Shown here: positions 1 to 20,598 of the stretch, piece by piece
Layout of the letters: the number at the start of each line of letters is the position of its first letter
Position numbering within the stretch: position 1 is the stretch's first letter
From: an uncultured Alphaproteobacteria bacterium
GTDB lineage: Bacteria; Pseudomonadota; Alphaproteobacteria; Rs-D84; CACZYB01
Direction: 5' to 3'
DNA length: 32,000 nt
Assembly: GCA_934246625.1 (NCBI GenBank)
Contig: CAKQHZ010000001.1
Span: forward strand, 150,001 to 182,000
Notes under the pieces: model-generated
What the model was told of the DNA's origin: nothing
Seen by the model: only the letters and a program-made list of their open reading frames with translations
Database searches by the model: none
Position numbers and translations under genes: made by a program

Positions 1-1319
1 GATAACAAATAATATGAAATAAGACATACAAACATAGATGAAATTATAATTGTTGGATTAAGCAATATTGTTGCAAGAATTTGATTTGTATCACTGAATA
101 AATTGACACCATTAAATATTGATGAAGCAGTTACAATTTTTCCGTCATTACCAAGCGAATCCAATAATGATTTTAAAGTTATATCAAATGGTCCAGCATT
201 AAAATTTGTAGTTAAAAGTTCGTTTAATAAATAAGTTGATATGGTCATAGCAACCGATAAAAATGCTATTCTGAAAGTGCATTGGACGACATTAAAGAAT
301 AATGGCTTTGATAATTGTCCTCGGGTATTTTTAAATGTCCACGCACCTATTGTGATTGGCATCATAACACCAACCATTGCAAGTTTAACAACTATATCTA
401 AAAGAATAAGTAAATATGTAAAGGCTATATATAAAAATGCAACTGCGATACAAAGTCCAATAAAAAATGTTAAAACATTCGCAAGAAATGTTATTACCAA
501 ATATATTTTTATAAAAAACATTATTATGGTATAAAGAATACCCCAGCCACCAAGTTTTGATAAAACCAAATTTTCAATCGTTTGCACGGCTGTTGTATTA
601 TATACAAAATCCAAAAGTTTAAATTCACCCATACCTATGCCTGCACGAGCCATTATTTTCAAACCTAATTGACTTCCTGCATTATACGTATTTTCATATT
701 CACGAGTAATGCACATAAGATTACGTAAAGTTTCTTCGTTTGCACTCATTTCATCAACAGATAAATTTGTTTTTTGATAATGGTTTAATACCTTTGTAGC
801 ATAACTTGATAATTTAACATCATCACAAGAAAAATTTTGAACCTTAAAGCCACCTAAAAAACTATCAGTAGAAACATTAAATAATTCGGTATCGGCCCTT
901 GCCTCTGTTAAAACCCATTTTGCAAAATTGGGTCCCATATTCATAATTGGGTCAATGGTATAGCTGAAAATTTCCTTTGCAGGAAGTGAAAGAAATGAAA
1001 GCACAAATGTATAAGCCAATAATTTTACAAAAACTTCTTTTAAAAAAGAAAATGTATTACCCTTTTGCTCCTTTATCGCATTAGTCCAAATATACCAAAT
1101 AAACCAAAATGCCATTGCGATAATAAGAATTTTTTGAAGTATTGGAACAAACTTATCATACAATTTATATACAAAATTAAAGACATATACATATATACCC
1201 TCAAGTATATTACAGCCCCAACAATTTTGTAGTTGTTGTGAAGAAGTATCACTTGCAAATAAAACATTGCTGGACAACAAAAACAATAATGAAAACCACA
1301 ATAATAATTTTTTCTTCAT
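1..1319 (-). CDS. virB6: VirB6/TrbL-like polytopic membrane protein, paralog E (5' part only; continues past the left edge of the window)
   Basis: Not in the ORF track because it is open-ended. I translated the minus strand by hand from ATG 1319..1317 and found no stop down to position 3 (439 codons): MKKKLLLWFSLLFLLSSNVLFASDTSSQQLQNCWGCNILEGIYVYVF...MPITIGAWTFKNTRGQLSKPLFF... It has a signal peptide, a CWGC-helix motif, several TM segments and the P-x4-[GA]-[YW]-x-F-x-x-T-R-like motif shared with the upstream paralogs. Its ATG lies 1 nt after the stop of the upstream gene (TAAAATG). Confidence 0.65.
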   Translation of the reverse strand, partial: MKKKLLLWFSLLFLLSSNVLFASDTSSQQLQNCWGCNILEGIYVYVFNFVYKLYDKFVPILQKILIIAMAFWFIWYIWTNAIKEQKGNTFSFLKEVFVKLLAYTFVLSFLSLPAKEIFSYTIDPIMNMGPNFAKWVLTEARADTELFNVSTDSFLGGFKVQNFSCDDVKLSSYATKVLNHYQKTNLSVDEMSANEETLRNLMCITREYENTYNAGSQLGLKIMARAGIGMGEFKLLDFVYNTTAVQTIENLVLSKLGGWGILYTIIMFFIKIYLVITFLANVLTFFIGLCIAVAFLYIAFTYLLILLDIVVKLAMVGVMMPITIGAWTFKNTRGQLSKPLFFNVVQCTFRIAFLSVAMTISTYLLNELLTTNFNAGPFDITLKSLLDSLGNDGKIVTASSIFNGVNLFSDTNQILATILLNPTIIISSMFVCLISYYLL

Positions 1320-1320
1320 T

Positions 1321-2829
1321 TTATGTATTATCCTTTATTTGTTCGTCCAAATCATTTGCATCTTCACGAAGAGCTTCGAATTTCTTTATTATATCAGATG
1401 TATCTTTTTTTAACAACTTTGTTGTTATTTCACGACCAAATGATTTTGCCCAAGTGCGAGTTGAATTAACAAGTTTTAAGAAGGTTCCGCCAACTTTAAA
1501 CATATAACCACTTACTATTCCTGAATAAGTATCAAGATTTCCCATAATCATCAATGAAAGTAAGCCAAGTGTGAATATAGGGAAAAAACTTCCTCCTGGG
1601 TTTTGAAGACTTGGCATTTCAAAAAGTATATCCTTTGATACTAAACAAGATTGTATTTTTGAAACATTCCCATTCGCAAGGTTAAAGCAATTTGCAAAGG
1701 CTTCGCTTTTCATTAAGGTATCTGTTTGACTTGCAACCAAATCATTATAAATAAAATCAGGAAACAAGTATGTGAAATTATCAAGTGGCCCTGGGTAATA
1801 CATATCACCAATAAAAATAAATGATGAATATATAATGCCTAAAAATATACAATACATAATGATTTTAAATGCCATACCAAACAAAGACTTAAATCCAGTT
1901 GATGAAAACTTTTTTGTTTCGTCATAGGCATAACCCGCCAACATCACAGGAACAAATGCAATTAAAATTCCGATTGTAAAAACTATATCAATCAAAGTAA
2001 AAGGAATGACTAAATACATTAAAAAGAATATTACAGTTATCGCCATACCGCCAATAATATCCAATAAAATCACAGGATTTTTATATTCAAGAAAACCCTT
2101 TAGTGAAAAATCAATCATATTCGCACCTGCGGTTGTCGCACTTAAATACACAACATTTACAGAATTTACCAAACAAAGCAAATCATTTTTTAATTCTTTG
2201 GAAAGGATACCATCAACTTCACTTTGTGGATAAGTTAAATGCTCACACACAGGAGATTTTACAATTTCCGTTCCAACACCAACCCCCATTTCCAACACGG
2301 GAATTGCCGTATTTTCAAAAATTAAATTTGCCATAGATTTCAATCTTGATGGTGTGGAATAACCGATTGCAACACCAATTATTGCAATTATGAAAAGTTT
2401 TTTTGCAAGTTCTTTTATTACATCATTAAAATTGATTTTTTGTTCGTCCTTTATATAACTATAAACTTTTGAAAGCAACCATATTGCAATTCCAAATAAA
2501 ACCAAGGTCCAAACTATATCAGAAATAAATGTAAAAACTTCTAAACCTACAACACTCATCAAATCAAATACTTTTGCGAAAATGCCACAGCTCCAACATC
2601 CATTAAAATTATCGGCAGGAAACATTCCATTTACTGGTTCAATTCCAGAAACGCTTTGATACCAATCAACAAAACTTGTGCCAACAGTAAAATCGCCCTT
2701 GATTGCAAAAATTGACATTGCAACAAAAATTCCCATTGAAAACAATCCTGACCATAAAAATATTTTTAATGGAGCAAGAAAAAATGCCTTCATCAAACGA
2801 TTTTTATTTTTAAATAAGTTATCAAGCAT
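1321..2829 (-). CDS. virB6: VirB6/TrbL-like polytopic membrane protein, paralog D
   Basis: ORF 1321..2874. I prefer the ATG at 2829 (MLDNLFKNK...) because GAGGA lies 5 nt upstream and it gives an 8-nt ATGCTTGA overlap with the upstream stop. N-terminal TM, CWSC motif (nt 2587-2598), at least 6 hydrophobic segments, VPVMLAGYAYDETKKF resembling Agrobacterium VirB6 GPLILVGYIFDRTRD (from memory), and a charged K/D/E tail. Confidence 0.7.
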   Translation of the reverse strand: MLDNLFKNKNRLMKAFFLAPLKIFLWSGLFSMGIFVAMSIFAIKGDFTVGTSFVDWYQSVSGIEPVNGMFPADNFNGCWSCGIFAKVFDLMSVVGLEVFTFISDIVWTLVLFGIAIWLLSKVYSYIKDEQKINFNDVIKELAKKLFIIAIIGVAIGYSTPSRLKSMANLIFENTAIPVLEMGVGVGTEIVKSPVCEHLTYPQSEVDGILSKELKNDLLCLVNSVNVVYLSATTAGANMIDFSLKGFLEYKNPVILLDIIGGMAITVIFFLMYLVIPFTLIDIVFTIGILIAFVPVMLAGYAYDETKKFSSTGFKSLFGMAFKIIMYCIFLGIIYSSFIFIGDMYYPGPLDNFTYLFPDFIYNDLVASQTDTLMKSEAFANCFNLANGNVSKIQSCLVSKDILFEMPSLQNPGGSFFPIFTLGLLSLMIMGNLDTYSGIVSGYMFKVGGTFLKLVNSTRTWAKSFGREITTKLLKKDTSDIIKKFEALREDANDLDEQIKDNT

Positions 2830-4816
2830 TTTTATCCTCTTTGTTATCTTCTTGTTTTTGTTTTTTTCGTTCATCTGCCATTTTTAGAATTTCTTTCTTT
2901 TCTTTGATTTTATCCTTCATATCCTTTGCAAGGACACTTGTATCAAATTTTAACTTAATTGCTTCACGACCAACTGTTGTTGTAAGTTTTACAATGTTTT
3001 GAGTCCATTTAAAGAATGTATTTGCAATCTTTTTTTCTGAAGAAATACCCTTAAATGAATTTGCGATTGATAAAGCCTTTCCCAATAAAAACCAAGATAT
3101 AAAACCTGTGTAAAAAACCTCAAGTAAAGAATTTGGTGAAAATGAAATCATATATAAAACTTCTGATGTGATTTCTTGGATATCAAGTTTTTCCAACGCA
3201 TCTTGGAAATTATAAAAATCCAAACCAGAAATATATAGCATTAACACAGATATAACTGAACACATCAATGTAAGTGATATTATTTGAAATATAGCAGATA
3301 AAAAAGTATCAAATGATTGCTTTACAAATTGTTTTTTATCAAGTGCATAGGCAACCAAAATAAGTGGGAATAAAAACACAACTATGGCAATCATAAAAAA
3401 TGCCTCAACAAAATAAAATGGCACCATTATATTTATGTAAAAGAATATCGCCATAATACAAAAACCGATAATAAGTTTGGTAAAGCCAGAACCATCAAAG
3501 TTTATAAGTTGTCGCCAACCAGTTTGTAAGTTATATTTTCCTATATCAAAATTCATATTATTAAATGCAGATATTCGTTCAATAGTGCAGACAATATTTT
3601 CTTTTATCTCCTTTGAAAAAATAACCTTATTATCACTTATATTTTTTGTTTTATATTTACAAGTAAATTGTTGATTATTGTTTTCTATACCACTTGTTAA
3701 TACACTGTTATACCCCACCATAAAATCAGTTAATGGTCGAATAGTATAATTTAAAATATTATGCTTATCAGTTATGGAAATTGTTAATGCTACACCAACA
3801 ATAAATACCCATACAGATTTTGTGAAAAATGTTTTTATAAATCCCATACCATCTTGTTTTTTAATGACATTATCAAAAAACGCAAACAGCATCCAAAATA
3901 AAAATAATCCAACCATCAAATCAATCGCATAACGTGAAAGATTATCATATAATACATAACCTATTCTTGAAACTGTATTAAATGTAATTTCAAATATATG
4001 ACAAGAGATACAGGATTTTGAAGTTTTGAAATCATACGGAAGACTTTTTAATTTGCAAGATGAACTGTTCCAACTTCCAACCTTTATATCCGTATCAAAA
4101 ATATAAATACCAGCAGTACCAATATTTAAAAATGGTATAGTTATACCTTTTGATTCCTTGTTTTTAACCTCGGCTACAACCTCGCCAAACATATTTATAA
4201 ATGTTGTGCCAAGAACTCCTATTGGTGCCAAGGCCTTTGGATAAGTTTGATTTACAAATTTTTCAAATGATATATTTGAAATTGTTGGAATACAATCGTT
4301 AAAAGCAAAAACCTTAAATATAGGAGAATAAGTTGTCTTTTTTGCAAAAATATTAAAATTCATAAGTCCACCAAGTTTACCCAATGGAATACCTATACGA
4401 TAAGGAAGCAAAGATTTAAGATGTTTTTCAGCACGATTTAAGGCCGTATCCAAAATTTTTTTATCACTTAAATTTTCCGGAATTGGTGTATCAATAAAAT
4501 AACGATAAAGATATTCTGCCTTTTCAGGGGTAATACCTGCTTGACGTAAAATATTTATATCCTTTACAAAAAGAGGTTGTGGGTAAAGTGCGAGATAAGA
4601 ATTCATATCAAAAGATAACCTTTTTTGATATTCCTTAAGATACTTAATTTCCCAACAATAAAACTCTTTGTTTGAAACATTTATTTCATCATTTAACAAA
4701 CCATAATACTTTGGATTTTGACAAAGATGTGGTGTTGATTGTGCAAAAGAAATATTTGGCATATTAAACATTATACCAAAGACAAAGCTATAAATTAAAA
4801 ATATTTTTTTAAGCAT
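2822..4816 (-). CDS. virB6: VirB6/TrbL-like polytopic membrane protein, paralog C, with an extra N-terminal secreted domain
   Basis: 664-aa ORF. Signal peptide ...NISFAQS, then a ~240-aa soluble Cys-containing domain homologous to that of paralog B, CISC motif (nt 4001-4012), multiple TM segments, FPLILVAYALDKKQF (close to VirB6 PLILVGY), and a K/E-rich tail. The start overlaps the upstream stop by 8 nt (ATGCTTAA). Confidence 0.7.
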   Translation of the reverse strand: MLKKIFLIYSFVFGIMFNMPNISFAQSTPHLCQNPKYYGLLNDEINVSNKEFYCWEIKYLKEYQKRLSFDMNSYLALYPQPLFVKDINILRQAGITPEKAEYLYRYFIDTPIPENLSDKKILDTALNRAEKHLKSLLPYRIGIPLGKLGGLMNFNIFAKKTTYSPIFKVFAFNDCIPTISNISFEKFVNQTYPKALAPIGVLGTTFINMFGEVVAEVKNKESKGITIPFLNIGTAGIYIFDTDIKVGSWNSSSCKLKSLPYDFKTSKSCISCHIFEITFNTVSRIGYVLYDNLSRYAIDLMVGLFLFWMLFAFFDNVIKKQDGMGFIKTFFTKSVWVFIVGVALTISITDKHNILNYTIRPLTDFMVGYNSVLTSGIENNNQQFTCKYKTKNISDNKVIFSKEIKENIVCTIERISAFNNMNFDIGKYNLQTGWRQLINFDGSGFTKLIIGFCIMAIFFYINIMVPFYFVEAFFMIAIVVFLFPLILVAYALDKKQFVKQSFDTFLSAIFQIISLTLMCSVISVLMLYISGLDFYNFQDALEKLDIQEITSEVLYMISFSPNSLLEVFYTGFISWFLLGKALSIANSFKGISSEKKIANTFFKWTQNIVKLTTTVGREAIKLKFDTSVLAKDMKDKIKEKKEILKMADERKKQKQEDNKEDKNA

Positions 4817-6902
4817 CTGTTATTTTATTTTCCTCTTTTACATCAACGATGGTTTCGTCATTTTCTTTTGTATTCTGTTTTATTTTATCATCTTTTTTCT
4901 TAATTGCATCTTGTTTTACAAATTCTGGATTTTCACGAGAAACTTTTAAACCTAAAATAGATTTGAAAGTTTTTCTTAGGTTTTCACCTAATGAAAGTTG
5001 ACCTGCTGAACCGCCATAACTTTGTGCGAACTCTGACAATCTAGAATATACATAATACATTGCATAAATAATAAAAATAAATTGTGAAACGCTTATTATA
5101 TCTGTTGGAATTGAATCCAAAATTATATTTGGATTATTTGTTTCAATGGCATTATCAATGATTGAAAGTATATCCTTGTTCGCATTTTTAAAATAAAAAC
5201 CATAAATAAGTGTGCGATTAAATAATGAAAATATTGCAAGAGTTATCATAGTAAATCCAAAATTTTTTGCCGTATTTATTATTGAGGTTATATTAAAACC
5301 TATCCAATTAAAGGCATAACCAAACACCATAAATGGCCAAAGAATTGCAATTTTTAAAATATCAAGAAGTCCATCTAAAATATAAAATGAAATCATAAAG
5401 TTCATTATGAAAAATAATCCCCAAATTAATAATCCGATAAAGAAACTTAATACCTTTGTATCAGAAGAAAAATTAAATAAGTTTTTCATTAAAACTTTAC
5501 CCATAGTCATTTGTTTTGCATTCGTTTGTAATGTATCGGTCAAAAAGCAAACTATATTCCCCATAGTATCCTTTGATAAAACATAACTATCAGTTAAAAT
5601 TTTATTTGATTGTATTTGTTTATTTTTAACAACAGGTGGAATAATTTGGTCGTCTGTTTTTACAACCTTTCTTTGATTTATTTCATCAATTACAGTATCT
5701 GGATTACATGTTGATGGAATATTTTGTGTTGATAAAACTTTGCTGGAGACACCCAAAGTTAAATCAATAATTGGTTGAAATGTAAATGAAAATAATACAT
5801 TCACAGGAGTAAGAAGCACAACTGAGACAATAAATATTAACCTTAGTTTTTCAGCAATCTTGCTATAATAATCACTTAAATCAACTGAAAATGGAGCATT
5901 CTTAAAACCACTTAAAAATGTTGTTGCAAAATAAAAACAACCAAATAAAACCAAAAATGAAATTATATATTTGCTAAATGTTTTATACATAAAATCGAAC
6001 AAGAAAGATATTTCATTAAATATCATCACAATATAAGGACACATAAAACATACTGAACTTTTTGCAACTTCTGCTTTTAAGTTATCAGCCTTACACTTGT
6101 TTTCATTCCAATTTACATTAACAGAAACATTTTGTGAAAAAACTTTGTTATTAAAAGTAATTCGTTTAACACTTGATTTGCCAAGTCCCTGTGAAAGAAC
6201 ATTTCCACCAACAGATGTGTTATATTCGATTGTGGCAACCGTTTCATCAAAAATATTTACAAAGTTTGTGCCCTTTATTGCAACTGGACGAAGTGCCAAT
6301 GGAATTGCTGAAATTACATCAAAATATGTCAAAGTTGATGCAGGAGTATAAAGTGCATTATCAGAAGAATAATTGATACGTTTATCAGTAATGCAATTTC
6401 GCCCTTTTTTATTAACTATACTTCCAATAAATTCGTCCGAATTATCAAAGTCCGTTGTGTTTGTAGTAAAATTTTTTGATGGAGTTATTGTAAAGTCCGC
6501 ACCTATTTGTTCGCTTACAATAGATGTTTTTATAAAATCGTTTAAAAGTTCTTGTGTTGAAAGATATGTTTCATTTTCATCATCAGAATTTATAAAATAA
6601 TCTTGAATAATATTTGGGGTAATGCCAAGACTTCTTAAATAATTAAAATTGTTTTTATAATTTCCATACATATTTTTATATTGTGCAACCGAAATCGCAC
6701 CTATACCATTTCGTTCAAGGTATAAAATATCACTGCAAAAGAAATCCTTTGAATATTTTTCAAGTATTGGCGTTGGATTTGCAAAATAAATTGATGCTTC
6801 CTTATAACTGCATTTTTCATTTGAAGATTGTGCCATAACATCAAAAGCGTTTGAAAAAATTAAGGCAAAAAGCAATGAAATGATTTTAAGATTTAGTTTC
6901 AT
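4809..6902 (-). CDS. virB6: VirB6/TrbL-like polytopic membrane protein, paralog B, with an extra N-terminal secreted domain
   Basis: ORF 4809..6929. I prefer the ATG at 6902 (MKLNLKIISLLFALIFSNAFDVMAQS, a typical signal peptide) because GTGAGG lies 6 nt upstream. The N-terminal domain aligns with paralog C (LRSLGITPNIIQDYF vs LRQAGITPEKAEYLY; PVAIKGTNFVNIFDETVATIE vs PIGVLGTTFINMFGEVVAEVK). CFMC motif (nt 6039-6050), many TM segments, WPFMVFGYAFNW, charged tail. Confidence 0.65.
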   Translation of the reverse strand: MKLNLKIISLLFALIFSNAFDVMAQSSNEKCSYKEASIYFANPTPILEKYSKDFFCSDILYLERNGIGAISVAQYKNMYGNYKNNFNYLRSLGITPNIIQDYFINSDDENETYLSTQELLNDFIKTSIVSEQIGADFTITPSKNFTTNTTDFDNSDEFIGSIVNKKGRNCITDKRINYSSDNALYTPASTLTYFDVISAIPLALRPVAIKGTNFVNIFDETVATIEYNTSVGGNVLSQGLGKSSVKRITFNNKVFSQNVSVNVNWNENKCKADNLKAEVAKSSVCFMCPYIVMIFNEISFLFDFMYKTFSKYIISFLVLFGCFYFATTFLSGFKNAPFSVDLSDYYSKIAEKLRLIFIVSVVLLTPVNVLFSFTFQPIIDLTLGVSSKVLSTQNIPSTCNPDTVIDEINQRKVVKTDDQIIPPVVKNKQIQSNKILTDSYVLSKDTMGNIVCFLTDTLQTNAKQMTMGKVLMKNLFNFSSDTKVLSFFIGLLIWGLFFIMNFMISFYILDGLLDILKIAILWPFMVFGYAFNWIGFNITSIINTAKNFGFTMITLAIFSLFNRTLIYGFYFKNANKDILSIIDNAIETNNPNIILDSIPTDIISVSQFIFIIYAMYYVYSRLSEFAQSYGGSAGQLSLGENLRKTFKSILGLKVSRENPEFVKQDAIKKKDDKIKQNTKENDETIVDVKEENKITDA

Positions 6903-8544
6903 TTGATGCCTCACTTTTATCTTTGGCATTGGATTGAATTTTATCCTTTATCAATCCAGTTGCAGATGATGTATTCTTTGCAAAGCCCACAACATTTCGT
7001 GTTGTAGATTTGGTCCAGTTCACAAAACTTTTTGATGTATTCCAAATGCTTCGTCCAAGATTTGACTCAGATATATTGCCACCAAACCAACCAGCAAACT
7101 TGTTTGTTTCAGTAATAATTTTAAAATTTAAAACCAAAGCAAAAATTATATAAAGGAAATACCAAAAACCAACAAGATTGTTAAACTCCTTGATATTACC
7201 CTCTTGAAGAAGTTTCAAAGCATATTTTGCAGATGACATACGGCTCATTCCATCAAAGGAAAACATTCCACCTAAAACCCAATCATTTAATTCATTGCAA
7301 ATTATTATCGCAACACACATAAAAACTAATCCCTTTGCAAAGCCAAATAATTTTGATAATCCCGCCGTTGCATAAGAACGTGTTTGTTCAAACACATAAC
7401 AAACGGCAAGAAATGGGAAAATTAAAAGAGCGACACCCATAAACAAAACATTTTCGATTATGATAAATGCAAAAAGCATATTTACCAAAAACAATCCTAT
7501 TACAATAGCAATACCACATAATCCCATACGAATATTATCATTCGTAATAAACGCAACTATTGATGTAATATTTGCAAAACGTGAAGCATTATTAGAAATT
7601 ACTTTACCGGTTTTTTGTGTTCGTTTTATATTTTTACCACCATTACCAGAAACGTCCTGTAAAACTTCGTCCAACTTGTCCTTTAATTTTTTAAGGCTTT
7701 CTTCGGTTTTTTTAGTATCCTTTCCACCATCTTTTTGTTTTTGAATTTTAACTTCGACTTTGCCAATCTTTTTTTGCATATTTTTAAGCCACTTTTCACT
7801 TCCAAAATGTTGTAAAGCTCTTCCACCAAAAAAGCCCGCCAAACGAATAGAAACATTTACAACTCCTGCAATTATAATTTGTGGCATACCATATTCAAAA
7901 AGTTCAATTCCTATATTCATATAGGTTTGACGAAGAAGGTCAACTTCCTTAAAAAGGCATACCATATTTTCCTTTGTATTTTCGGATAGTGCCATACCTT
8001 CTTTATAAATAAGTTTTGTATTATCCTTATCACATTCGGGTGGAACGGTTAATTGAAGATTATCAATCTTTTTTCGCAAAACACCTCTTCCAATACCACT
8101 TCCAAAATCAAGAACAAGTTCATAAGTATTTGAAAAAATATTTCGTGGAGAATTTAAAAGCAATGCCCCTATTACAAATGTTGCAAGAAAAAGTTTGCGA
8201 TAGATTTTTTTTAAATACCCACTGTCTATATCAATTTTTGGATTTATACTTACACCCTTTATAAAAATTTTATATGTTTCAAATACAATCCATAATGCAA
8301 GACATACCGATAAAATTTTCAAAGAATCATTTTGGAAAAGGTAAAATGTTTGATATGAAACCTTTGAAAAAGTATCGTAAATATTTTCAAAAACTCCACA
8401 TACCCAACAATCGGTTAAAAGTATGTAAACTCCTGTTGAAATATTATATGTTGCATAAGCAATCAAAAGAACAGCAATAACAAAAAGCACCCAGCCTTTG
8501 ATATCTGAGAATATAGAACCTGCTTTTGATAAAACGCTATTCAA
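6886..8544 (-). CDS. virB6: VirB6/TrbL-like polytopic membrane protein, paralog A (first of the array)
   Basis: 552-aa ORF. The start codon is TTG (plus strand caa at 8542-8544), 6 nt after the stop of the 87-aa ORF, with AAGGAAG upstream. N-terminal TM, CWVC motif (nt 8398-8409), an internal K/E-rich loop, TM bundle, and FPFLAVCYVFEQTRSYATAGLSKLF, which is very similar to Agrobacterium VirB6 GPLILVGYIFDRTRDIAAKWIGQLI (from memory). Confidence 0.7.
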   Translation of the reverse strand: MNSVLSKAGSIFSDIKGWVLFVIAVLLIAYATYNISTGVYILLTDCWVCGVFENIYDTFSKVSYQTFYLFQNDSLKILSVCLALWIVFETYKIFIKGVSINPKIDIDSGYLKKIYRKLFLATFVIGALLLNSPRNIFSNTYELVLDFGSGIGRGVLRKKIDNLQLTVPPECDKDNTKLIYKEGMALSENTKENMVCLFKEVDLLRQTYMNIGIELFEYGMPQIIIAGVVNVSIRLAGFFGGRALQHFGSEKWLKNMQKKIGKVEVKIQKQKDGGKDTKKTEESLKKLKDKLDEVLQDVSGNGGKNIKRTQKTGKVISNNASRFANITSIVAFITNDNIRMGLCGIAIVIGLFLVNMLFAFIIIENVLFMGVALLIFPFLAVCYVFEQTRSYATAGLSKLFGFAKGLVFMCVAIIICNELNDWVLGGMFSFDGMSRMSSAKYALKLLQEGNIKEFNNLVGFWYFLYIIFALVLNFKIITETNKFAGWFGGNISESNLGRSIWNTSKSFVNWTKSTTRNVVGFAKNTSSATGLIKDKIQSNAKDKSEASNETKS

Positions 8545-8550: not shown

Positions 8551-8814
8551 TTACTTCCTTTTTTCAAAGAATTTATTTTTTAACTTTATCAAAGTAGTAA
8601 AAAACTTTGACCTTAAAAACCTTGTCAACCAATCACTTACAACTTGGTTTAGCTTTCGGTTTTCAGGATGTGCCTTTGCATAAAGGATACACAAACACAC
8701 AAATATAATTCCCCAAGAAAGTATCAATATAAAAAACTTTAGCTTTGATATAATATAAAGTCCCAATAAAATTGATAAAACGGTTAAAAGTAATTTCATA
8801 TTGCCTGAAAACAT
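8551..8814 (-). CDS. small two-TM membrane protein, first gene of the VirB6-like operon (function unknown)
   Basis: 87-aa ORF with two hydrophobic helices (LLLTVLSILLGLYIISKL, FFILILSWGIIFVCLCILYA) and a basic C-terminal tail. A strong SD (GAGGGAGGA) lies ~8 nt upstream of the ATG at 8814. Its stop is 6 nt before the start of paralog A. Confidence 0.6.
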   Translation of the reverse strand: MFSGNMKLLLTVLSILLGLYIISKLKFFILILSWGIIFVCLCILYAKAHPENRKLNQVVSDWLTRFLRSKFFTTLIKLKNKFFEKRK

Positions 8815-8888: not shown

Positions 8889-10367
8889 ATGGAAAATTAT
8901 AATTCATTTTTACCAGACGAGATGTTAAACAAACTTAACAGAAGTTTGGATACATTTTATTTGAAAATTAGGGAAATTATAGAAAACAAATCTTTGGCTT
9001 CTCAACAAAAGGAAGCTGAGATAAAAAAACTTTATGATAGCTCATTTGAAAATATTGACGGAATTGAAAAATCAGATGATTATATTAAGGATTTATTACA
9101 AAATATAAATGATTATTCCAATGGTAAAATTGACGATAAAGAATTGTTCTTTAATTTGGAAAAACATAAGGAAGATACAAGGTCTGCTATCTTAATAAAT
9201 TATGAAAATACTTTCCTTGCAACACAAAGAAAGGAAGAAACAGAAAAGACAAAACAAACCTTAAAAGAATTGTTTCCAAATAGTAATGTTGACAATTTGA
9301 ATCAGGCTCAATTAACAGAAATTACAAATGATTTGGAAAATCCTTATACTGCTACATTATCAGAAAAAACACTGGAAGACTTAAATCTTCCTCGAAAAGA
9401 TGCTGAAAAAATAAAGGTGCAATATAAATATAAAGTCGAAGGCAAAATAACATCTGGAATTGGTGATTTAGATACATTTTTGGGTATTATACAGCCTGGA
9501 CTTAATTTAATACTTAAAACTGGTGCAAAACTTGTTTATGAAGGTATTATTGACCCAGCAGAAAAGGTATTCTTTGGAAACGAAGAACTTGGAATAAAAA
9601 GTTTTTATCAATCATGGGCTGAACAAACTGGAAATTTAAAAAAGGATTATGATTTCCTTCATAAATTCGGTGATATGCCAGCAGATGATACCTTTAAATA
9701 TGCTCAAAGTGTGAAAAAAACTGAAAACCACGTTGCAACATATTGGCAAAATAAAATCATTGAACAAATAAATAAAAATCGTGAAACAACTTATAAAAAT
9801 AATATTTCTCAATATAATCAAAACTACAATCGTATTGTTTCAAATTTGCTAAATGATGAAAATACTTCTCAAGCATTAAAGGACAGCATAAAAAATACTG
9901 ATGATATAACAAAGTTAAAGGTATTTCCTTTGCTTGACTCTATATCAAAAGAGGATAAAGATTTGTTGATGAATAAACCTGAAGAAGTTCAAAAATTTAC
10001 TGGAAATCCATTTGATAAAACAAAGGATATAACCGAAACTCAACAGGCTTTGCAAGAAATTATAAAGCAAGTTATTTCAGAAACTCGTGAAAAAGATAGT
10101 GAAGGAAAACCCGTTGCAAAGGCAACTGATGCTGGAAAATCTGCACTTAATAGTATTATGCACTTAACTGATTTATTTAATAAAGAAGATAGTCCTGAAT
10201 TCAAAGGTAAGTTTTCTGATTTAATAGAGTATTATAAAAATGGATACCTTAAAAATTATGGAAAACTTATTGAAAACAGTGATTACTTTGAATATCAATC
10301 CAGTGAAGAAGCAAAAAATGCTGAATTTATGGATCAATTAAAGGCAATGGTAGGAAACAGTAAATAA
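8889..10367 (+). CDS. hypothetical soluble acidic/Lys-rich protein (orphan; candidate secreted effector)
   Basis: 492-aa ORF with no signal peptide or TM and a composition rich in E/K/D/N/Q. It has one central hydrophobic patch (FLGIIQPGLNLILKTGAKLVYEGII). I recognise no family. First gene of a tightly packed operon. Confidence 0.7.
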   Translation: MENYNSFLPDEMLNKLNRSLDTFYLKIREIIENKSLASQQKEAEIKKLYDSSFENIDGIEKSDDYIKDLLQNINDYSNGKIDDKELFFNLEKHKEDTRSAILINYENTFLATQRKEETEKTKQTLKELFPNSNVDNLNQAQLTEITNDLENPYTATLSEKTLEDLNLPRKDAEKIKVQYKYKVEGKITSGIGDLDTFLGIIQPGLNLILKTGAKLVYEGIIDPAEKVFFGNEELGIKSFYQSWAEQTGNLKKDYDFLHKFGDMPADDTFKYAQSVKKTENHVATYWQNKIIEQINKNRETTYKNNISQYNQNYNRIVSNLLNDENTSQALKDSIKNTDDITKLKVFPLLDSISKEDKDLLMNKPEEVQKFTGNPFDKTKDITETQQALQEIIKQVISETREKDSEGKPVAKATDAGKSALNSIMHLTDLFNKEDSPEFKGKFSDLIEYYKNGYLKNYGKLIENSDYFEYQSSEEAKNAEFMDQLKAMVGNSK

Positions 10368-10368
10368 T

Positions 10369-11457
10369 ATGAAAAAAAAGCTATCATACATATTTCTTAT
10401 TACCTTGATTTTGGTTTTGCCTATTATTTATTGGCTTAATTTTAAATGGGGTATTAAATTTTCTGCTATTGATATAAAAAAATTAAGATTTGCATTTATG
10501 CGTGATAAGTTTTTGCTTTTTGCAACTTTGTGTAATTCTGGGCTTTATGTTTTTGTTGTATATAAAATTATAAACTCTAATGTTATTGAAAATAATGGAA
10601 ACAACAATACAAAAATTCCTGAAAAACAAATAAATACTGTGCCAAATGGTATAATGTTATCTGCCTCTACTGGAAGTGGTCAAATAAACCCAAATGATAA
10701 AAAATGGCAAGATATGTATAAGGGAAATGGTGAAGATGAAGAAGTTGTTGTAAAGGAAGCTCCTCAAACTCCTATCACTAAAGAAAATATTTCAAAGCCA
10801 GAAGATAATAAAATTAGCACGGAAGAAATTCCTCAACCACAACAACCTGTTCTTGAAGAAAATCAAGATAATATTATCAATATTCCACCACTTGAATCCG
10901 AAGATGTTATCAATGTTCAAGTGGAAAGAGCTCTTGCCGAAATTGGATATGAAAATATGGGTGATATTTACATCAATGGTGTGTATGTTGACTTTGTATC
11001 TATCGCAGAAAGTGATACTTTAGTAATTGGAAAAATCAATGCAAAGGGTGGAAATATTATTGCAAATGAAACGCCAACAACTCCAAATACTCCACCATCT
11101 TGGTTCACAAATGAAGAAAAGTATCCATCACCTGTATGGGAAATAAAAAATGCCTCTAATGAATTTGTTAAAATGATTAACGAAGTTTTACCAGAAGACA
11201 ATGGTATAATTGTTAAATCTGTTGTTGTAATACCATCTGCAACTGTTGTTAATCAAGACGACATTGAACCAAAGTGGAAAGAATTAGATGTCGATGTTGT
11301 AAAATTGTCTGGAAAATCAAATCTTCCAAATATAGTTTCCGTGCTTCCTGATAGAAAGGATACCGAAGTTTTGGAAAGTTATAAAAAATTTGTTCAAACC
11401 TTGATGAAATATTTTTCACAAAAATATAAACGTCCAAATATAAAAAAGGCAGGATAG
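10369..11457 (+). CDS. membrane-anchored protein with a C-terminal NERD-like / PD-(D/E)xK-like domain
   Basis: 362-aa ORF starting 1 nt after the upstream stop. Two N-terminal TM helices, a P/E/Q-rich linker (EEIPQPQQPVLEENQDN), then VERALAEIGYENMGDIYINGVYVDFVSIAESDTLVIGKINAKGGNIIANE...SWFTNEEKYPSPVWEIKN, which follows the NERD pattern (D-hh..., hhhExK, G-x-I, W, sP). The ExK glutamate appears to be replaced (VIGK). Confidence 0.6.
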   Translation: MKKKLSYIFLITLILVLPIIYWLNFKWGIKFSAIDIKKLRFAFMRDKFLLFATLCNSGLYVFVVYKIINSNVIENNGNNNTKIPEKQINTVPNGIMLSASTGSGQINPNDKKWQDMYKGNGEDEEVVVKEAPQTPITKENISKPEDNKISTEEIPQPQQPVLEENQDNIINIPPLESEDVINVQVERALAEIGYENMGDIYINGVYVDFVSIAESDTLVIGKINAKGGNIIANETPTTPNTPPSWFTNEEKYPSPVWEIKNASNEFVKMINEVLPEDNGIIVKSVVVIPSATVVNQDDIEPKWKELDVDVVKLSGKSNLPNIVSVLPDRKDTEVLESYKKFVQTLMKYFSQKYKRPNIKKAG

Positions 11458-11460
11458 CCA

Positions 11461-12024
11461 ATGTTATTTACTGAAAATTATTATCGCGATTTGATTGCAA
11501 AGCTGGGAATTCCAGAAATGCCAATAAAAAAAGTTTTGTTCAAAAAAGATTATCTTTCAAATTGTCCTAAACTTTATAATGACTTTTTCAAAATATCAAA
11601 AAAACTTATGCAATTTGTTTATTACAATAATATTGAGGATTTGATTGGTGCAAATTTTTCACACGAAAGTATTATGAAAATGCGTGATGGAATACTTCCT
11701 GAAAATATTGATATATATTTAAAGGTTCCATTTGAATATGGTGGGACAATCGAATTTTCAAATATGTTTTTGATAAAAAAAAGACCATTCAAGGATTTGA
11801 TTGATAGTTTTATTGATGAGCAAGTCTTAACCTTTAATCGTTCCAATGGAAATTTTAATCGTGAAAGTGGTTATCAATATCCAACTGAACTTTATATCCC
11901 AAATCCAAAGGGTATTATATTTTTGCCTGCATTAAAGGGATTTGCTGGAGCTGGCGGTAATACATCTGCAGATATTATGACCGAAATAGGAAGCACTATG
12001 TTTTCAAAATCAGGAGGCTTTTAA
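11461..12024 (+). CDS. hypothetical protein in the toxin position upstream of a SUKH-like gene
   Basis: 187-aa ORF with no signal peptide or TM. The segment DIYLKVPFEYGGTIEFSNMFLIKKRPFKDLI loosely recalls an HNH/beta-beta-alpha-Me core (P-x3-GG-x5-N) but lacks the histidines. Gly-rich C-terminus. Its stop overlaps the next start (TAATG). Confidence 0.6.
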   Translation: MLFTENYYRDLIAKLGIPEMPIKKVLFKKDYLSNCPKLYNDFFKISKKLMQFVYYNNIEDLIGANFSHESIMKMRDGILPENIDIYLKVPFEYGGTIEFSNMFLIKKRPFKDLIDSFIDEQVLTFNRSNGNFNRESGYQYPTELYIPNPKGIIFLPALKGFAGAGGNTSADIMTEIGSTMFSKSGGF

Positions 12025-12470
12025 TGAACGACATTTTTAAAAAATTAAAGCTCTGTATAAATAATATAATATATTTGCCACCTGCAAAAGATGCTCAAAT
12101 TGATTTTGTAAGTGCAATGCTTAAAAATGATGGATTTGCTCCTGTGCCACAAGATTATATAGACTTTTTAAAATTAACAAATGGAATTTGTTCTGGGATT
12201 TTAGAATTTTTTGGAACCGAAAAAATTAAACGTGCAGACTATAACTATAATTTTCCAAATTTAATAGATGCAAATGAAATTTTTAAAAAATCAGAAAATC
12301 CTCTTATGAAAAATTCTGTGCTATTAGGATATAATCTTTTAAATGCAATTATTTATGATAATGATGAAAAACTTTATAAAATTGTAAATAGAAATTTTTT
12401 CACTCCTGTAAAATCTTTTATTACTTTCAAAGATGTTTTAAATGAAATAATTAAAAATCTAAGGGACTAA
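12024..12470 (+). CDS. SMI1/KNR4 (SUKH-1)-like immunity-type protein
   Basis: 148-aa ORF with an AGGAGG SD 7 nt upstream. The N-terminal pattern AKDAQIDFVSAMLKNDGFAPVPQDYIDFLKLTNG matches the SUKH signature (a..eI...E..lg..lP.dY..FL...NG). A later segment (VLLGYNLLNAIIYDNDEKLYKIV) fits the second conserved block. Confidence 0.55.
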   Translation: MNDIFKKLKLCINNIIYLPPAKDAQIDFVSAMLKNDGFAPVPQDYIDFLKLTNGICSGILEFFGTEKIKRADYNYNFPNLIDANEIFKKSENPLMKNSVLLGYNLLNAIIYDNDEKLYKIVNRNFFTPVKSFITFKDVLNEIIKNLRD

Positions 12471-12471: not shown

Positions 12472-12678
12472 ATGCTTGAAAAACATTCAATTACATTGAT
12501 GGGTCATCAAACAAGTATTTCTATGGAACCAGAATTTTGGATTGAACTTAAAGCTATTGCAAACAAACAAAATAAATCCATCAATGAAATTATTTCGTCT
12601 ATTGATATAAGTCAACATAATGGCAATTTATCAAGTTGCATTCGTGTGTTTATTCTTAAAAACCTTAAAAATAATTAG
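12472..12678 (+). CDS. ribbon-helix-helix domain protein (RHH_4 / PF13467-like, conserved in Alphaproteobacteria)
   Basis: 68-aa ORF. The sequence HSITLMGHQTSISMEPEFWIELKAIANKQNKSINEIISSIDISQHNGNLSSCIRVFIL matches the family pattern H.TS..LE.eFW..L..IA......L..L...ID......NLSSa.RvF.L. Confidence 0.7.
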   Translation: MLEKHSITLMGHQTSISMEPEFWIELKAIANKQNKSINEIISSIDISQHNGNLSSCIRVFILKNLKNN

Positions 12679-15600
12679 TTAAAAATTTCTTTCTTTTTCT
12701 TTTGAAGATATGAAGTATTGATTTTGGACATTATCGCAGATGTATCAACTTCTCCTCCAAGATTATTAATAAAGCCTTTGATATTATAAATCAAATTTAG
12801 TGTTTCACTTGAAAGATTTTTAATTTCAAACAAACTTTCAATATTCAAGGATTTTTTTATCAAATTACCAGAAACAAATCCTGTTACAAACATATTTTTT
12901 GATGAAAGTGTAAATGCAGATTTCACAATTTCTGCCATATCAATCTTTCCTTCGATTACAAGGTTTGTAAAATTAAGCATACCTGATTTAAAACTATTTT
13001 CCAAAGCATAAAGAATATTGTTTGTTGTAATATTTGAAAGCTCAACTACATTATGAAGAATTGTATCGTAATCACTTATCCCCTTTATAGTTCCGTTTTT
13101 AATGTTGGCTTTAAAACTTCCTGATAAATTTGAGGTTAGTTGATAAATGTTCATTCCATCTGTTCTGAAATCAAGATTAAGGTTCATAAGTCCAGATGTA
13201 AGATTCATAAGTTCGTTATTCATCAAATCATTTGGAATTACAAAATTTTCTACACTTAACTTTCCTGTGAAAATTCGATTATTTAAAATTTCAGATGAAA
13301 GTTTTAAAAGTCGCCCTGCCTTTTGAATATTAAATTCAAGTGAACCTGGGTTTTTAGAATTAACAAGGTTTAAATATAAATCCTTATACACATTACCATT
13401 GTATTCAACGATATTTTTTGCATTCAATTTTATGTTATATGGAACCGTTCTGATAATTTTTAATAAAAAGTCAACATAAGCATCAGTATCCTTTAAACGT
13501 TTTATAATTGCCTTTACATCAAAATTGTCGATTGATAAATCAACATTTGTTTCATAGGTTGGATTTTTTTGGCTTCGTGAAATATTTTTTCTTAAAATAT
13601 CTCCTGTAAATAAATTATTTTTTATTTTAAGTTTGATGTCTTTTATATTATTGCCATCAACTTCTGCCTTTAATGAAAAAGGTATATCATCATAAAAATA
13701 ATTCATTAAAGTATCATCAATAAAGCCCCATGAGAATAAAAATCCCTTTAATTCAGTATGTGATAAATCAAGAGAGTATTTTTCACTTCCTTCTAATAAA
13801 CGACCATTAACTCTTACGCTTATATTATTTAAAACCGCATATACATCAGACACAGGGTTTGAGGCACTTCCATTTAATTTTATGTTTATTGTTTTTACTC
13901 CGTTTGCAATAATTTTATCAATAAAGCTGTTGCGGATAAACGGTAAAGTAAGACCTCGTAAATTATCAGAATTTATTACATAATTGAAATTTTTAAATGA
14001 ACCATTATCCTGTGTAATTCCGACTAAATCTCCACTTATGGTTGAAGAATAATCACTTTCTTTAAATGTAAGTTTTTTCACAGATAATGTATCATTTTTA
14101 AATGAGGTATCAAGTTTTAATAAATCATATTTATTTGATGGAGTTTTTAATGACTTTATCATTGCATTTAATTTAAAGGAACTTTTCTTTATCAATGAAA
14201 GATTATGTATAATATATGCTAAATCAATTTTTGATTTGGTAAATTTTGTTGTATCAAGTTCATCAGATTTTAATACAATGTTATAATCATTTCCATTTGG
14301 TGAAAGGGTTGTATCAACACTTCCAAACAATTTATTACCATCAATGTTTAAGTTTAAATCAGATACAGAAATTGTATTATTCTCCTTTATAATACGGGCA
14401 TCAAAGGAATTTATCCTTGTCATTTTGAAAAAGATATTTGGAAAATACACAGGTATTTTATTTTTTATTACTAAATCAGTTTTAATATCAGAAAAAATAT
14501 CAAAAAGTTTTCCCGTTATTTGTATTGGATTTTTACCAAGTGAGTAATTGAGCTTTTTTATATCAATTCCCATATAGTTATTATTTTGATAAATTGGTGC
14601 TGAATTTAATTCAAAATTTGTTATCAAATCATTTTCCAAAAGCAAATTTTTTACAAAAATGTTTAATGTCGGATATGCAAAAACTTTAAGTAATTCTTTG
14701 ATTTCATCTTTATTTGTATTTGATAACCTAAAAATATTATCAGGCATAGTTAAAATTTTTGAAAGTTTTAAATTTTTAAAATCAACATTAAAAGAAATGT
14801 TATTTTTTACCAAAGAGATTTTATTATCATCTGAACGAGTAAATGGAATAATACTTGAAAAATTCGCAAACGCGTCATTTGATGTAAATGTTCCATTTGA
14901 AAGAATAATTGCTTCTGATGTTGTTTGAATTGTCGTTTTAATATTAAGTTTATCATTGAATAAAGGTATATTTGGAACTTCGACACTTCCATCAATCAGT
15001 GGTATAAATTTATACAAATTGTCTGTTGTTAAATCAACTGTGCCATTTACAACTGGGGTATTTTCCTTTACAACTATATTAAAACGATTTTTAATTATGT
15101 TTTTACCATTTATATAATCAAAATTCGCATCAAGGTTATAATTTTCATTATTTACATAACGAAGATAAAAAACTATATCATCAATCTTGTTTGAAAGATA
15201 TTCAAAAGAACCAGTTCCCTGTAGTTCAGAATTTAATATGTTTTTAAAATGAATGTTAATGTTATAAATTCTTCGAACTTTATTTAATCCGTCTTTGTTA
15301 TTTTGAGATATAACAGTTGAATTTTTTATAATTAAGTCATTGAAACTTTTCCCCTTTAATATTAAATCTAGGTTTTCAAAACCACTTTCCTTATAATGGG
15401 TATAATTAAGATATCCTCCATCAATAATAATTTTGTTAATATGCAAATCACCACTCATTAAATTTAACAAATCCATACTTACAAAAATTTGTTTTGCATT
15501 TAAAAATGTTGATGTATTAGGCTCATTTTGTTTTCTAAAATTTTTGATATCAACGTTTTTCATTATAATTGCAGGATATGGAAGTATTCTGAATGTAATT

Positions 15601-15758: not shown

Positions 15759-15797
15759 ATTTCTCCCCTTTTTTACTATGCTAGGCATTTATTTCCT

Positions 15798-15829
15798 TTG
15801 ACAACTCCTTATAAGAAATATACTATAAT
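15798..15829 (+). promoter_or_regulatory. putative sigma70-type promoter of uvrB
   Basis: TTGACA at 15798-15803, 17 nt spacer, TACTAT at 15821-15826 (TATAAT at 15824-15829 is an alternative). It lies ~50 nt upstream of the uvrB ATG. Confidence 0.35.
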
Positions 15830-15877
15830 TTATAGTTTAATAAGACAAGCAAAAAATTTAGATTTTAAGGTTTTATT

Positions 15878-17926: not shown

Positions 17927-17963
17927 ATTTTATAATATTATATAAATAATAAAGGAGGCCGTT

Positions 17964-18479: not shown

Positions 18480-18500
18480 CTATTTTTAATTATCAAAATT

Positions 18501-18525
18501 GGAGGTTTTAGACCTCCTTTTTTTT
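18501..18525 (+). terminator. rho-independent terminator after the WG-repeat gene
   Basis: GGAGGT-tttag-ACCTCC hairpin (18501-18517) followed by T8 (18518-18525). Confidence 0.75.
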
Positions 18526-18563
18526 GCTTTAAAAACTTTTCATTATGTGATATATTTGTTTGT

Positions 18564-18965: not shown

Positions 18966-18966
18966 G

Positions 18967-20478: not shown

Positions 20479-20569
20479 AAAAAACGACCTCCAATACAAG
20501 AACAAAAATAGCACATACATATTTAATTGTAAAGTATTTTTTCCTATTTCATTAAATATAATTTTATTA

Positions 20570-20598
20570 TTGACAAAAATATTTTTATGTTATATATT
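20570..20598 (+). promoter_or_regulatory. putative sigma70-type promoter of the OM beta-barrel gene
   Basis: TTGACA (20570-20575), 17 nt spacer, TATATT (20593-20598). The ORF-track ATG at 20587 falls inside this element, which favours the ATG at 20629. Confidence 0.4.

What the first reader, a model, noticed from the sequence alone, without database searches (positions are those of the whole stretch)
1212..8409. Conserved CxxC-plus-helix motif at the start of the membrane domain in all five VirB6-like paralogs
Each paralog has C-x-x-C followed by a short hydrophobic/amphipathic helix just before the first long Trp-containing TM segment. A has TDCWVCGVFENIYDTF (nt 8398-8409), B has SSVCFMCPYIVMIFNEI (6039-6050), C has SKSCISCHIFEITFNTV (4001-4012), D has NGCWSCGIFAKVFDLM (2587-2598) and E has QNCWGCNILEGIYVYV (1212-1223). 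In E, B and C it follows a cleavable signal peptide or secreted domain, so it should face the periplasm. I do not recall such a motif in Agrobacterium VirB6. Conservation across otherwise divergent paralogs implies function, for example a redox-active or structural disulfide, metal binding, or a helix-capping element.
Basis: seen in the sequence. Interest (0 to 1): 0.65.

Follow-up and report, generated by a model that had tools for sequence, protein, structure and literature searches.

The report
Four-cysteine signature of extended VirB6-like proteins
All five tandem VirB6-like membrane proteins in this window carry a C-x-x-C at the start of their first helix plus two more conserved cysteines in the next periplasmic loop. 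This signature marks a large, mostly uncultured branch of type IV secretion VirB6 proteins, is absent from the textbook VirB6/TrbL proteins checked, and most likely forms two structural disulfide bonds.

Summary
Each of the five tandem minus-strand ORFs (A-E, window 3-8544) has exactly one CxxC, at the stated coordinates, and the five align.

It is half of a larger signature. In 41 sequences covering all five paralog types, the only invariant columns are the two CxxC cysteines, two cysteines in the following periplasmic loop, and one proline.

The same five-gene array, with the cysteines, occurs in 15 related metagenome-assembled genome loci. A profile search finds 1643 cluster representatives, and 168 of 170 aligned ones have both cysteines.

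Canonical VirB6 (Agrobacterium), TraD (R46) and TrbL (RK2, pTi) lack the motif. Their N-terminal helix aligns with the helix that follows the CxxC.

AlphaFold models of D and C put the CxxC in the first turn of a roughly 50-residue helix. Their best structural match is TrwI/VirB6 of R388.

Counts of periplasmic cysteines are even in 153 of 168 proteins. The CxxC and the loop pair are each lost as a pair, independently of the other.

Best reading, inferred and not shown: two separate periplasmic disulfides, one capping helix alpha1 and one stapling the loop.

It is a new variant of a known kind and of moderate interest. Whether Rickettsia RvhB6 shares the motif could not be tested.

The parts
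6886..8544 (-). Paralog A, VirB6-like, 552 aa (TTG start). N-terminal anchor helix, then the CxxC.
   Evidence: ORF. Pfam TrbL 26.2 bits against a cut-off of 25.9. NCBIfam PRK13852 VirB6, weak.
8398..8409 (-). A CxxC (C46-W-V-C49)
7957..8034 (-). A loop cysteine pair, C171 to C196
4809..6929 (-). Paralog B, 706 aa. Signal peptide, a secreted N-domain of about 255 aa, then the CxxC and the VirB6-like core.
   Evidence: No Pfam hit. Aligns with the family profile.
6039..6050 (-). B CxxC (C294-F-M-C297)
5547..5708 (-). B loop cysteine pair, C408 to C461
2822..4816 (-). Paralog C, 664 aa. Signal peptide, a secreted alpha/beta N-domain, then the CxxC and the VirB6-like core.
   Evidence: AF2 model with pLDDT 79; helix 270-319 starts at the CxxC. 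Foldseek best match TrwI/VirB6, E=4e-4.
4001..4012 (-). C CxxC (C269-I-S-C272)
3587..3661 (-). C loop cysteine pair, C386 to C410
1321..2874 (-). Paralog D, 517 aa. N-in anchor helix, about 35 periplasmic residues, then the CxxC and the VirB6-like core.
   Evidence: AF2 model with pLDDT 73; helix 94-142 starts at the CxxC. Foldseek best match TrwI/VirB6, probability 1.0. Pfam TrbL 20.2 bits, below the cut-off.
2587..2598 (-). D CxxC (C93-W-S-C96)
   Evidence: Invariant in 21 D orthologs.
2173..2247 (-). D loop cysteine pair, C210 to C234
1..1319 (-). Paralog E, N-terminal 439 aa. The gene runs off the window start; the full protein is 826 aa. Signal peptide, then the CxxC.
   Evidence: P0032.
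1212..1223 (-). E CxxC (C33-W-G-C36)
711..827 (-). E loop cysteine pair, C165 to C203
8551..8814 (-). An 87-aa ORF with two membrane helices, first gene of the array. It is conserved upstream of such arrays in related and distant loci.
   Evidence: No family match.

Best explanation
The five genes encode 'extended' VirB6-like inner-membrane proteins of a type IV secretion-related apparatus. They belong to a large branch of the family, mostly from uncultured bacteria, that is defined by four periplasmic cysteines.

The CxxC sits in the first turn of helix alpha1. Alpha1 corresponds to the N-terminal helix of canonical VirB6, which in R388 TrwI runs down into the membrane and is proposed to recruit pilin. 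Canonical VirB6 starts a few residues before this helix. In this branch the helix is preceded by an anchor helix, a signal peptide or a secreted domain, and the CxxC marks that junction.

Most likely mechanism (inferred, not shown): after export, the two cysteines of the CxxC are oxidised to a local i,i+3 disulfide. This fixes and caps the start of alpha1 and separates it from the N-terminal extension. The second pair forms a separate disulfide that staples the loop between the next periplasmic helices, in the part that forms the base of the stalk in R388.

Shown here: the homology, conservation and position of the cysteines, the VirB6 fold, and the absence of the motif from canonical members.

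Inferred: the oxidised state, which cysteine pairs with which, and the structural role.
For: - Conservation. Across all five paralog types the only invariant columns are the four cysteines and one proline. The CxxC is present in 75/77 VirB6-like ORFs of the window plus 15 related loci and in 168/170 aligned family representatives.
- VirB6 identity. Pfam TrbL hits. Foldseek best match TrwI/VirB6 for the D and C models. The family profile aligns to At VirB6 residues 14-77 and 173-220 and to TrwI 8-78 and 136-227.
- Link to T4SS. VirB11-like and VirB10/TrbI-domain genes lie within 7 kb of a five-paralog array in L028. A VirD4-type gene lies 7 kb from the array in L002.
- Position. The AF2 helices start at the CxxC: D 94-142, C 270-319. 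After the second Cys come residues typical of a helix N-cap (P, D, G, S or N).
- Periplasmic side. Signal peptides or anchor helices precede the motif, and the loop between the first two membrane helices is rich in Lys/Arg.
- Disulfides. Periplasmic Cys counts are even in 153/168 proteins, and in 48/52 of a non-redundant subset. An odd count upstream of the CxxC goes with an odd count in the loop in 41 cases, against 15 cases where the parities disagree.
- Independent pairs. P0049 and P0063 lack both CxxC cysteines but keep the loop pair. P0089, P0108, P0126 and P0143 keep the CxxC with no loop cysteine.
- Absent from canonical proteins. At VirB6, R46 TraD and TrbL of RK2, pTi and another IncP plasmid have 0-3 Cys and no CxxC.
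Against: - No coordinates of the models were available, so S-S distances were never measured. The pairing rests on a handful of proteins that have lost one pair.
- The coupled parity between the segment just upstream of the CxxC and the loop shows that these two regions are close in space. Cross-links between the CxxC and the loop pair are therefore geometrically possible.
- A purely structural i,i+3 disulfide is unusual, and near-total conservation over more than 1000 clusters could point to a chemical role.
- The hosts are gut and rumen bacteria, and I could not check whether they have a periplasmic oxidation system (DsbA/DsbB or VKOR).
Confidence: 0.5

Rival explanations
1. Cross-linking disulfides: each CxxC cysteine bonds to one of the two loop cysteines, tying the start of alpha1 to the periplasmic loop domain.
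For: All four cysteines are invariant together in this lineage. In relatives, an extra Cys 12-15 residues upstream of the CxxC co-occurs with an extra loop Cys (odd/odd parity in 41 proteins), so the two regions are neighbours in space.
Against: Family members keep the CxxC with no loop cysteine at all, and others keep the loop pair with no CxxC. With cross-links, either loss would leave unpaired cysteines. Oxidation of consecutive cysteines during export favours 1-2 and 3-4 pairing (general knowledge of DsbA, not tested here).
Confidence: 0.15
2. Redox-active site: the CxxC at the helix N-terminus is a reactive dithiol/disulfide. It could exchange with the loop pair, as in the DsbB/VKOR arrangement of a CxxC plus a loop pair. 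It could also form mixed disulfides with a partner such as a pilin or substrate, or act as a redox switch on the channel.
For: A CxxC in the first turn of a helix is the geometry of thiol oxidoreductase active sites (general knowledge). A CxxC followed by a Cys pair 24-53 residues apart in the next periplasmic loop resembles DsbB (from memory). Conservation is stronger than is usual for a structural staple. Alpha1 is the proposed pilin-recruitment helix in R388 (PMC9259494).
Against: There is no thioredoxin fold and no fold match to DsbB or VKOR. The CxxC lies 23-31 residues before the membrane segment where this could be measured (A, C, D, E), so not at a quinone site. The second residue between the cysteines is variable. 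The loop pair is dispensable in several members. No oxidoreductase gene is linked to the arrays.
Confidence: 0.13
3. Intermolecular disulfides: the CxxC cysteines link neighbouring subunits of a VirB6 ring, possibly a hetero-pentamer of the five paralogs.
For: VirB6 is a pentamer in R388 (PMC9259494). This lineage and L028 each keep five paralogs in fixed order. All paralogs keep the motif.
Against: Other arrays have three or four paralogs. In L023, L027 and L028 one paralog of the array lacks the second Cys or the whole motif at the aligned position. Nothing places the alpha1 N-termini of neighbouring subunits in contact.
Confidence: 0.08
4. Metal site: the four cysteines, or the CxxC alone, bind Zn, Cu or an Fe-S cluster.
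For: Four invariant cysteines including a CxxC resemble a tetrahedral metal site.
Against: The location is periplasmic. The second pair is 24-53 residues apart rather than a second knuckle. Family members have 2, 4, 6 or 8 periplasmic cysteines with pair-wise gain and loss, not sets of four. No conserved His or Asp partner column was found.
Confidence: 0.06

Closest known systems
Canonical P-type VirB6/TrbL (A. tumefaciens VirB6, R388 TrwI, R46/pKM101 TraD, RK2 and pTi TrbL; Pfam PF04610)
   Same: Same fold: Foldseek best match TrwI, TM-score 0.52-0.57 normalised to TrwI. Same order of elements: alpha1 with the first membrane helix, a short cytoplasmic turn, a second membrane helix, a periplasmic loop, then the hydrophobic core. 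Shared motif after the core proline: At 'GPLILVGYIFDRTRD' against family 'LLPLLIVAWVFxxTR'. The helix after the CxxC aligns with the N-terminal helix of At VirB6 (residues 14-77) and TrwI (8-78).
   Different: Canonical proteins begin about 5 residues before this helix, or directly after a signal peptide in TrbL. They have no CxxC and no loop cysteine pair. The window proteins have N-terminal anchors or secreted domains and C-terminal tails, mostly fall below the Pfam threshold, occur as five tandem paralogs, and are chromosomal. This type is nearly absent from 72,556 plasmids.
Extended VirB6 paralog arrays of Rickettsiales (RvhB6a-e of Rickettsia; VirB6-1 to -4 of Anaplasma and Ehrlichia)
   Same: Three to five tandem, highly divergent VirB6-like paralogs with large hydrophilic extensions and signal peptides, on the chromosome of an AT-rich alphaproteobacterium, with other T4SS genes scattered elsewhere (PMC2653234, PMC7648143, PMC10732058).
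   Different: In Rickettsiales the array follows virB3-virB4. Here it follows an 87-aa two-helix ORF with no virB4 nearby. The relatives are gut and rumen metagenome genomes labelled Alphaproteobacteria, with two labelled Rickettsiales. Whether RvhB6 proteins carry the CxxC could not be tested. The papers read do not mention it.
DsbB / VKOR thiol oxidases (resemblance only)
   Same: A membrane protein with a periplasmic CxxC plus a second cysteine pair in the next periplasmic loop (from memory).
   Different: No sequence or fold similarity. The CxxC is far above the membrane rather than at a quinone site. The loop pair is dispensable in some members.

Membership tests
TrbL/VirB6 (Pfam PF04610) | Match to the family HMM above the curated threshold | tested here: inconclusive
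   A scores 26.2 bits against a cut-off of 25.9 (met). D scores 20.2 bits (below). B, C and E have no hit. Distant CxxC-type relatives hit TrbL at up to 29 bits.
TrbL/VirB6 (Pfam PF04610) | VirB6 fold as seen in R388 TrwI | tested here: met
   The AF2 models of D and C have TrwI/VirB6 chains as their top PDB matches: probability 1.0, E = 1.7e-3 and 4.2e-4, TM-score 0.52-0.57 normalised to TrwI. Model confidence is moderate (pLDDT 73 and 79).
TrbL/VirB6 (Pfam PF04610) | Conserved core motif after the membrane proline, and co-linear alpha1/TM1 | tested here: met
   Family profile against At VirB6: residues 173-220 (E = 1.8e-7) and 14-77 (weak, co-linear). TrwI is the only PDB sequence hit of the family profile.
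TrbL/VirB6 (Pfam PF04610) | Encoded with other T4SS genes (VirB3/4, B8-B11, D4) | tested here: inconclusive
   None in the 32-kb window or within 10 kb in the 15 related loci. L002 has a VirD4-type gene 7 kb away. A distant five-paralog CxxC array (L028) lies beside VirB11-like and TrbI/VirB10-domain genes. Whole genomes could not be searched.
TrbL/VirB6 (Pfam PF04610) | Pentameric stalk base in an assembled T4SS | not testable with these tools
   Only single-chain predictions were available, and without coordinates.
Rickettsiales extended VirB6 (RvhB6) | Three to five tandem divergent paralogs with large flanking hydrophilic regions | tested here: met
   Five tandem ORFs at 21-24% identity. 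B and C have N-domains of about 255 aa. E has a C-terminal extension of about 400 aa.
Rickettsiales extended VirB6 (RvhB6) | Array directly downstream of rvhB3-rvhB4 | tested here: not met
   Upstream of A there is only an 87-aa two-helix ORF, then divergent ORFs of unknown function. There is no VirB4.
Rickettsiales extended VirB6 (RvhB6) | Sequence-level orthology with RvhB6a-e, including presence of the CxxC | not tested
   No Rickettsia, Anaplasma or Wolbachia VirB6 sequence could be retrieved.
Thioredoxin-fold oxidoreductases | CxxC at a helix N-terminus within a thioredoxin fold with a cis-Pro loop | tested here: not met
   The CxxC is at a helix start, but the helix 94-142 that follows, and the rest of the VirB6 core, are all-helical membrane protein with no thioredoxin fold match.
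DsbB/VKOR | Four-helix bundle with the CxxC at the membrane/quinone interface | tested here: not met
   The CxxC lies 23-31 residues before the membrane segment in A, C, D and E. No fold or sequence match.

The most novel reading that the evidence does not exclude
The CxxC is a reactive thiol/disulfide centre at the top of the pilin- or substrate-handling helix of a VirB6 ring built from several paralogs. Together with the loop pair, it makes secretion or assembly depend on the periplasmic redox state, or forms transient mixed disulfides with cargo or pilin. That would be a redox-gated step with no counterpart in studied T4SSs.
Probability: 0.08. Interest if true: 0.75.

Novelty: new variant of a known kind. 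Interest (0 to 1): 0.42.

Why it matters
Extended VirB6 proteins are among the least understood T4SS parts. A 2025 review states that the contribution of their architecture is not known (PMC12857230).

The four-cysteine signature gives three things:
- A simple sequence marker for a large branch of VirB6-like proteins that standard models mostly miss. B, C and E here have no Pfam hit.
- A precise landmark for where the conserved VirB6 module begins inside these long proteins.
- Four obvious residues to mutate or thiol-trap, to test how the periplasmic part of VirB6 is built.

It also shows that multi-paralog VirB6 arrays occur outside classical Rickettsiales, in gut and rumen Alphaproteobacteria.

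Tried and rejected
- A third homolog search with a 23-sequence diverse profile returned only 4 unnamed proteins, so no named relatives were obtained.
- Cluster look-ups of 20 distant hits gave almost no organism names.
- A PDB sequence search with At VirB6 found nothing useful.
- The R388 accession was not in the collection.
- A guessed pTi region did not contain trb. TrbL was instead found with a remembered peptide and read from real records.
- Gillespie 2016 is not held.
- The predicted models come without coordinates, so Cys-Cys distances could not be measured.
- Whole-chain Foldseek of C gave no match for the secreted N-domain.
- Phage origin was considered because of a 'Bacteriophage sp.' hit. 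I rejected it: that unverified contig is syntenic with a bacterial VirB6 array.
- Chance or alignment artefact was rejected on the conservation counts.
Full report
**Observation.** The region holds five tandem minus-strand ORFs:
- A: 6886-8544, 552 aa
- B: 4809-6929, 706 aa
- C: 2822-4816, 664 aa
- D: 1321-2874, 517 aa
- E: starts at 1319 and runs off the window start. 439 aa are visible here and the full protein is 826 aa (P0032).

MAFFT puts the five motifs in the same two columns although the paralogs share only 21-24% identity.

Two further cysteines are invariant, in the large loop after the second membrane helix: A 171/196, B 408/461, C 386/410, D 210/234, E 165/203. An alignment of 41 proteins contains all five paralog types and their relatives. 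In it, the only invariant columns are these four cysteines and one proline in the membrane core.

Minor corrections: A and D have an N-terminal anchor helix rather than a signal peptide, and the first membrane segment of B has no Trp.

**Conservation beyond the window.** D has 31 close relatives, all from metagenomes. Fetching their contigs and a scan of reference genomes gave 15 loci with the same arrangement: a small two-helix ORF followed by A-E in the same order. They come from gut and rumen metagenome genomes labelled Alphaproteobacteria. Of the 77 VirB6-like ORFs in the window plus these loci, 75 have the CxxC and the two loop cysteines. One exception has CxxxC and the other is a cut ORF.

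A profile of the five window proteins was searched against 1.84 billion cluster representatives. It found 1643 proteins at E <= 1e-3 and 1049 at E <= 1e-10. I could examine only the best 150 together with the close relatives. Among the 170 of these that cover the first Cys column, 168 have Cys there. At the second Cys column the count is 169 of 172.

The family consensus is C-[WFL]-x-C-[PDGSN]-[LIV]-F-x-x-[ILV]-[FY]-[DN]. Two cultured Alphaproteobacteria carry members with the same four cysteines, on a Microvirga and an Erythrobacter plasmid. Otherwise the type is nearly absent from 72,556 plasmids.

**What the proteins are.**
- Pfam TrbL/VirB6 hits A just above its cut-off and D below it. B, C and E have no hit.
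- AlphaFold2 models of D (pLDDT 73) and C (pLDDT 79) have the R388 TrwI/VirB6 chains as their best PDB matches, with probability 1.0 and TM-score 0.52-0.57 normalised to TrwI.
- A profile of 23 diverse family members finds TrwI as its only PDB sequence hit.
- The same profile aligns to A. tumefaciens VirB6 at residues 173-220 (the PLILVGYIFDRTRD motif, E = 1.8e-7). It also aligns co-linearly at residues 14-77.

There are no other T4SS genes in the window or within 10 kb in the close relatives. One relative has a VirD4-type gene 7 kb downstream. A more distant locus, L028, has five tandem CxxC-type paralogs lying next to VirB11-like and VirB10/TrbI-domain genes. I therefore file these proteins as extended VirB6-like proteins. 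They resemble the Rickettsiales RvhB6 arrays in organisation but are not placed after virB3-virB4.

**Where the CxxC sits.**
- In both models a long helix starts at the motif: D 94-142 and C 270-319.
- The first 18 residues after the motif are moderately amphipathic. In A, C, D and E the membrane segment begins 23-31 residues after the first Cys.
- This helix is the counterpart of alpha1 of TrwI. In R388, alpha1 is one of only two helices inserted in the membrane and is the proposed pilin-recruitment site (PMC9259494).
- In the profile alignments the CxxC columns fall on P6 and F9 of At VirB6 and on residues 4 and 7 of TrwI.
- Canonical VirB6, TraD and TrbL start at, or are cleaved just before, this helix, and they have no CxxC and 0-3 cysteines in total. 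At VirB6 was verified at 100% identity on Ti plasmids. R46 TraD and the RK2, pTi and IncP TrbL proteins were read from the records.

So the CxxC marks the junction between the conserved VirB6 module and an N-terminal extension that canonical proteins lack.

The motif lies on the periplasmic side. It follows a signal peptide (E), a signal peptide plus a secreted domain (B, C), or an N-in anchor helix (A, D). The loop after the first membrane helix is rich in Lys/Arg. No dedicated topology predictor was available, so this rests on inspection and on the models.

**How it probably works.**
- I counted cysteines in the predicted periplasmic parts of 168 family proteins. The total is even in 153 of them, and in 48 of 52 in a subset with less than 35% mutual identity.
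- When the segment upstream of the CxxC has an odd number of cysteines, the loop also has an odd number. There are 41 such cases against 15 where the parities disagree.
- This is what pair-wise disulfide bonding predicts. It is not what sets of four metal ligands predict, because totals of 2, 4, 6 and 8 all occur.
- The two pairs are lost independently. P0049 and P0063 have lost both CxxC cysteines but keep the loop pair. P0089, P0108, P0126 and P0143 keep the CxxC with no loop cysteine.

The simplest reading is therefore two separate disulfides. One is local to the CxxC and caps and fixes the start of alpha1. The other closes the loop between the following periplasmic helices. This pairing is an inference from few cases. 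I could not measure distances because the models come without coordinates.

**Rivals kept open.**
- Cross-links from the CxxC to the loop pair. The parity coupling shows that the two regions are neighbours in space.
- A reactive CxxC, as a DsbB/VKOR-like relay, a mixed disulfide with a partner, or a redox switch.
- Links between subunits of a ring made of several paralogs.
- A metal site.

**Comparison and novelty.** Neither the papers I read nor my text searches mention this motif:
- The Rickettsia T4SS analysis (PMC2653234).
- The Anaplasma VirB6 study (PMC7648143).
- The Orientia mobilome paper (PMC10732058), where CxxC refers to TraF.
- The 2025 nomenclature review (PMC12857230), which has no occurrence of 'cysteine' and says the role of extended-VirB6 architecture is unknown.
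- Two text searches.

I could not obtain Rickettsiales VirB6 sequences, so whether RvhB6 shares the signature is untested. I rate this a new variant of a known kind. It is a real and very strongly conserved feature of a large, poorly annotated VirB6 branch, with an ordinary most-likely mechanism (periplasmic disulfides) and a small chance of something more interesting.

Noticed in passing
window 8551-8814 (-): An 87-aa ORF with two membrane helices lies directly upstream of paralog A. Orthologs of 85-89 aa occur in L001, L003 and L004, and similar small ORFs of 63 and 72 aa precede distant VirB6-like arrays (L023, L028). It has no family match. It could be a VirB3- or pilin-like partner.
   Followed up: partly
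window 8889-12470 (+): Four divergently transcribed ORFs (492, 362, 187 and 148 aa) stay next to the VirB6 array in L001, L002 and L004. The last is a SUKH-1/YrhA-family immunity-like protein, which hints at a toxin-immunity or effector module beside the array.
   Followed up: partly
window 4037-4816 and 6075-6929 (-): B and C carry related secreted N-terminal domains of about 255 aa, with four conserved cysteines (C: 32, 54, 175, 254). AF2 predicts a confident alpha/beta fold (pLDDT about 90). There is no Pfam hit and no PDB match in the whole-chain search.
   Followed up: partly
P0135, P0144, P0163, P0169, P0183; L003 9772-11613; P0066: Many distant family members fuse a peptidoglycan hydrolase (M23 peptidase or VgrG3-like lysozyme domain) in front of the CxxC. 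Some E-type orthologs carry one after the membrane core. This looks like a VirB1-like function fused to VirB6. No such domain is detectable in the window's E (P0032).
   Followed up: partly
L023/L024, L025/L026, L027 (MT835708.1), L028, L029: Other lineages (43-52% GC) have arrays of two to five CxxC-type VirB6-like paralogs. Each array is followed by a conserved HTH protein of about 325 aa and, where the contig continues, by further ORFs of unknown function. In L023, L027 and L028 one paralog lacks the CxxC at the helix start. L028 also has VirB11-like and VirB10-domain genes nearby.
   Followed up: partly
L027 = MT835708.1: A GenBank record labelled 'UNVERIFIED: Bacteriophage sp.' from a human faecal virome is syntenic with the bacterial VirB6-array locus L023. 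It is probably bacterial DNA, not a phage.
   Followed up: partly
L016 (Microvirga plasmid) and L017 (Erythrobacter plasmid): The only plasmid-borne CxxC-type VirB6-like genes found are single genes on plasmids typed as non-mobilizable. They sit among helicase, RecJ, RadA, RNR and SSB genes, with no T4SS genes within 12 kb.
   Followed up: no
window 12675-31676: The rest of the window is ordinary chromosomal content at about 30% GC: an AsmA-family protein, uvrB, a WG-repeat protein, a Mg-chelatase-like ATPase, an outer-membrane beta-barrel protein, ddl, alaS, prfB, RgpF, a Ctp protease and an M23 peptidase.
   Followed up: no
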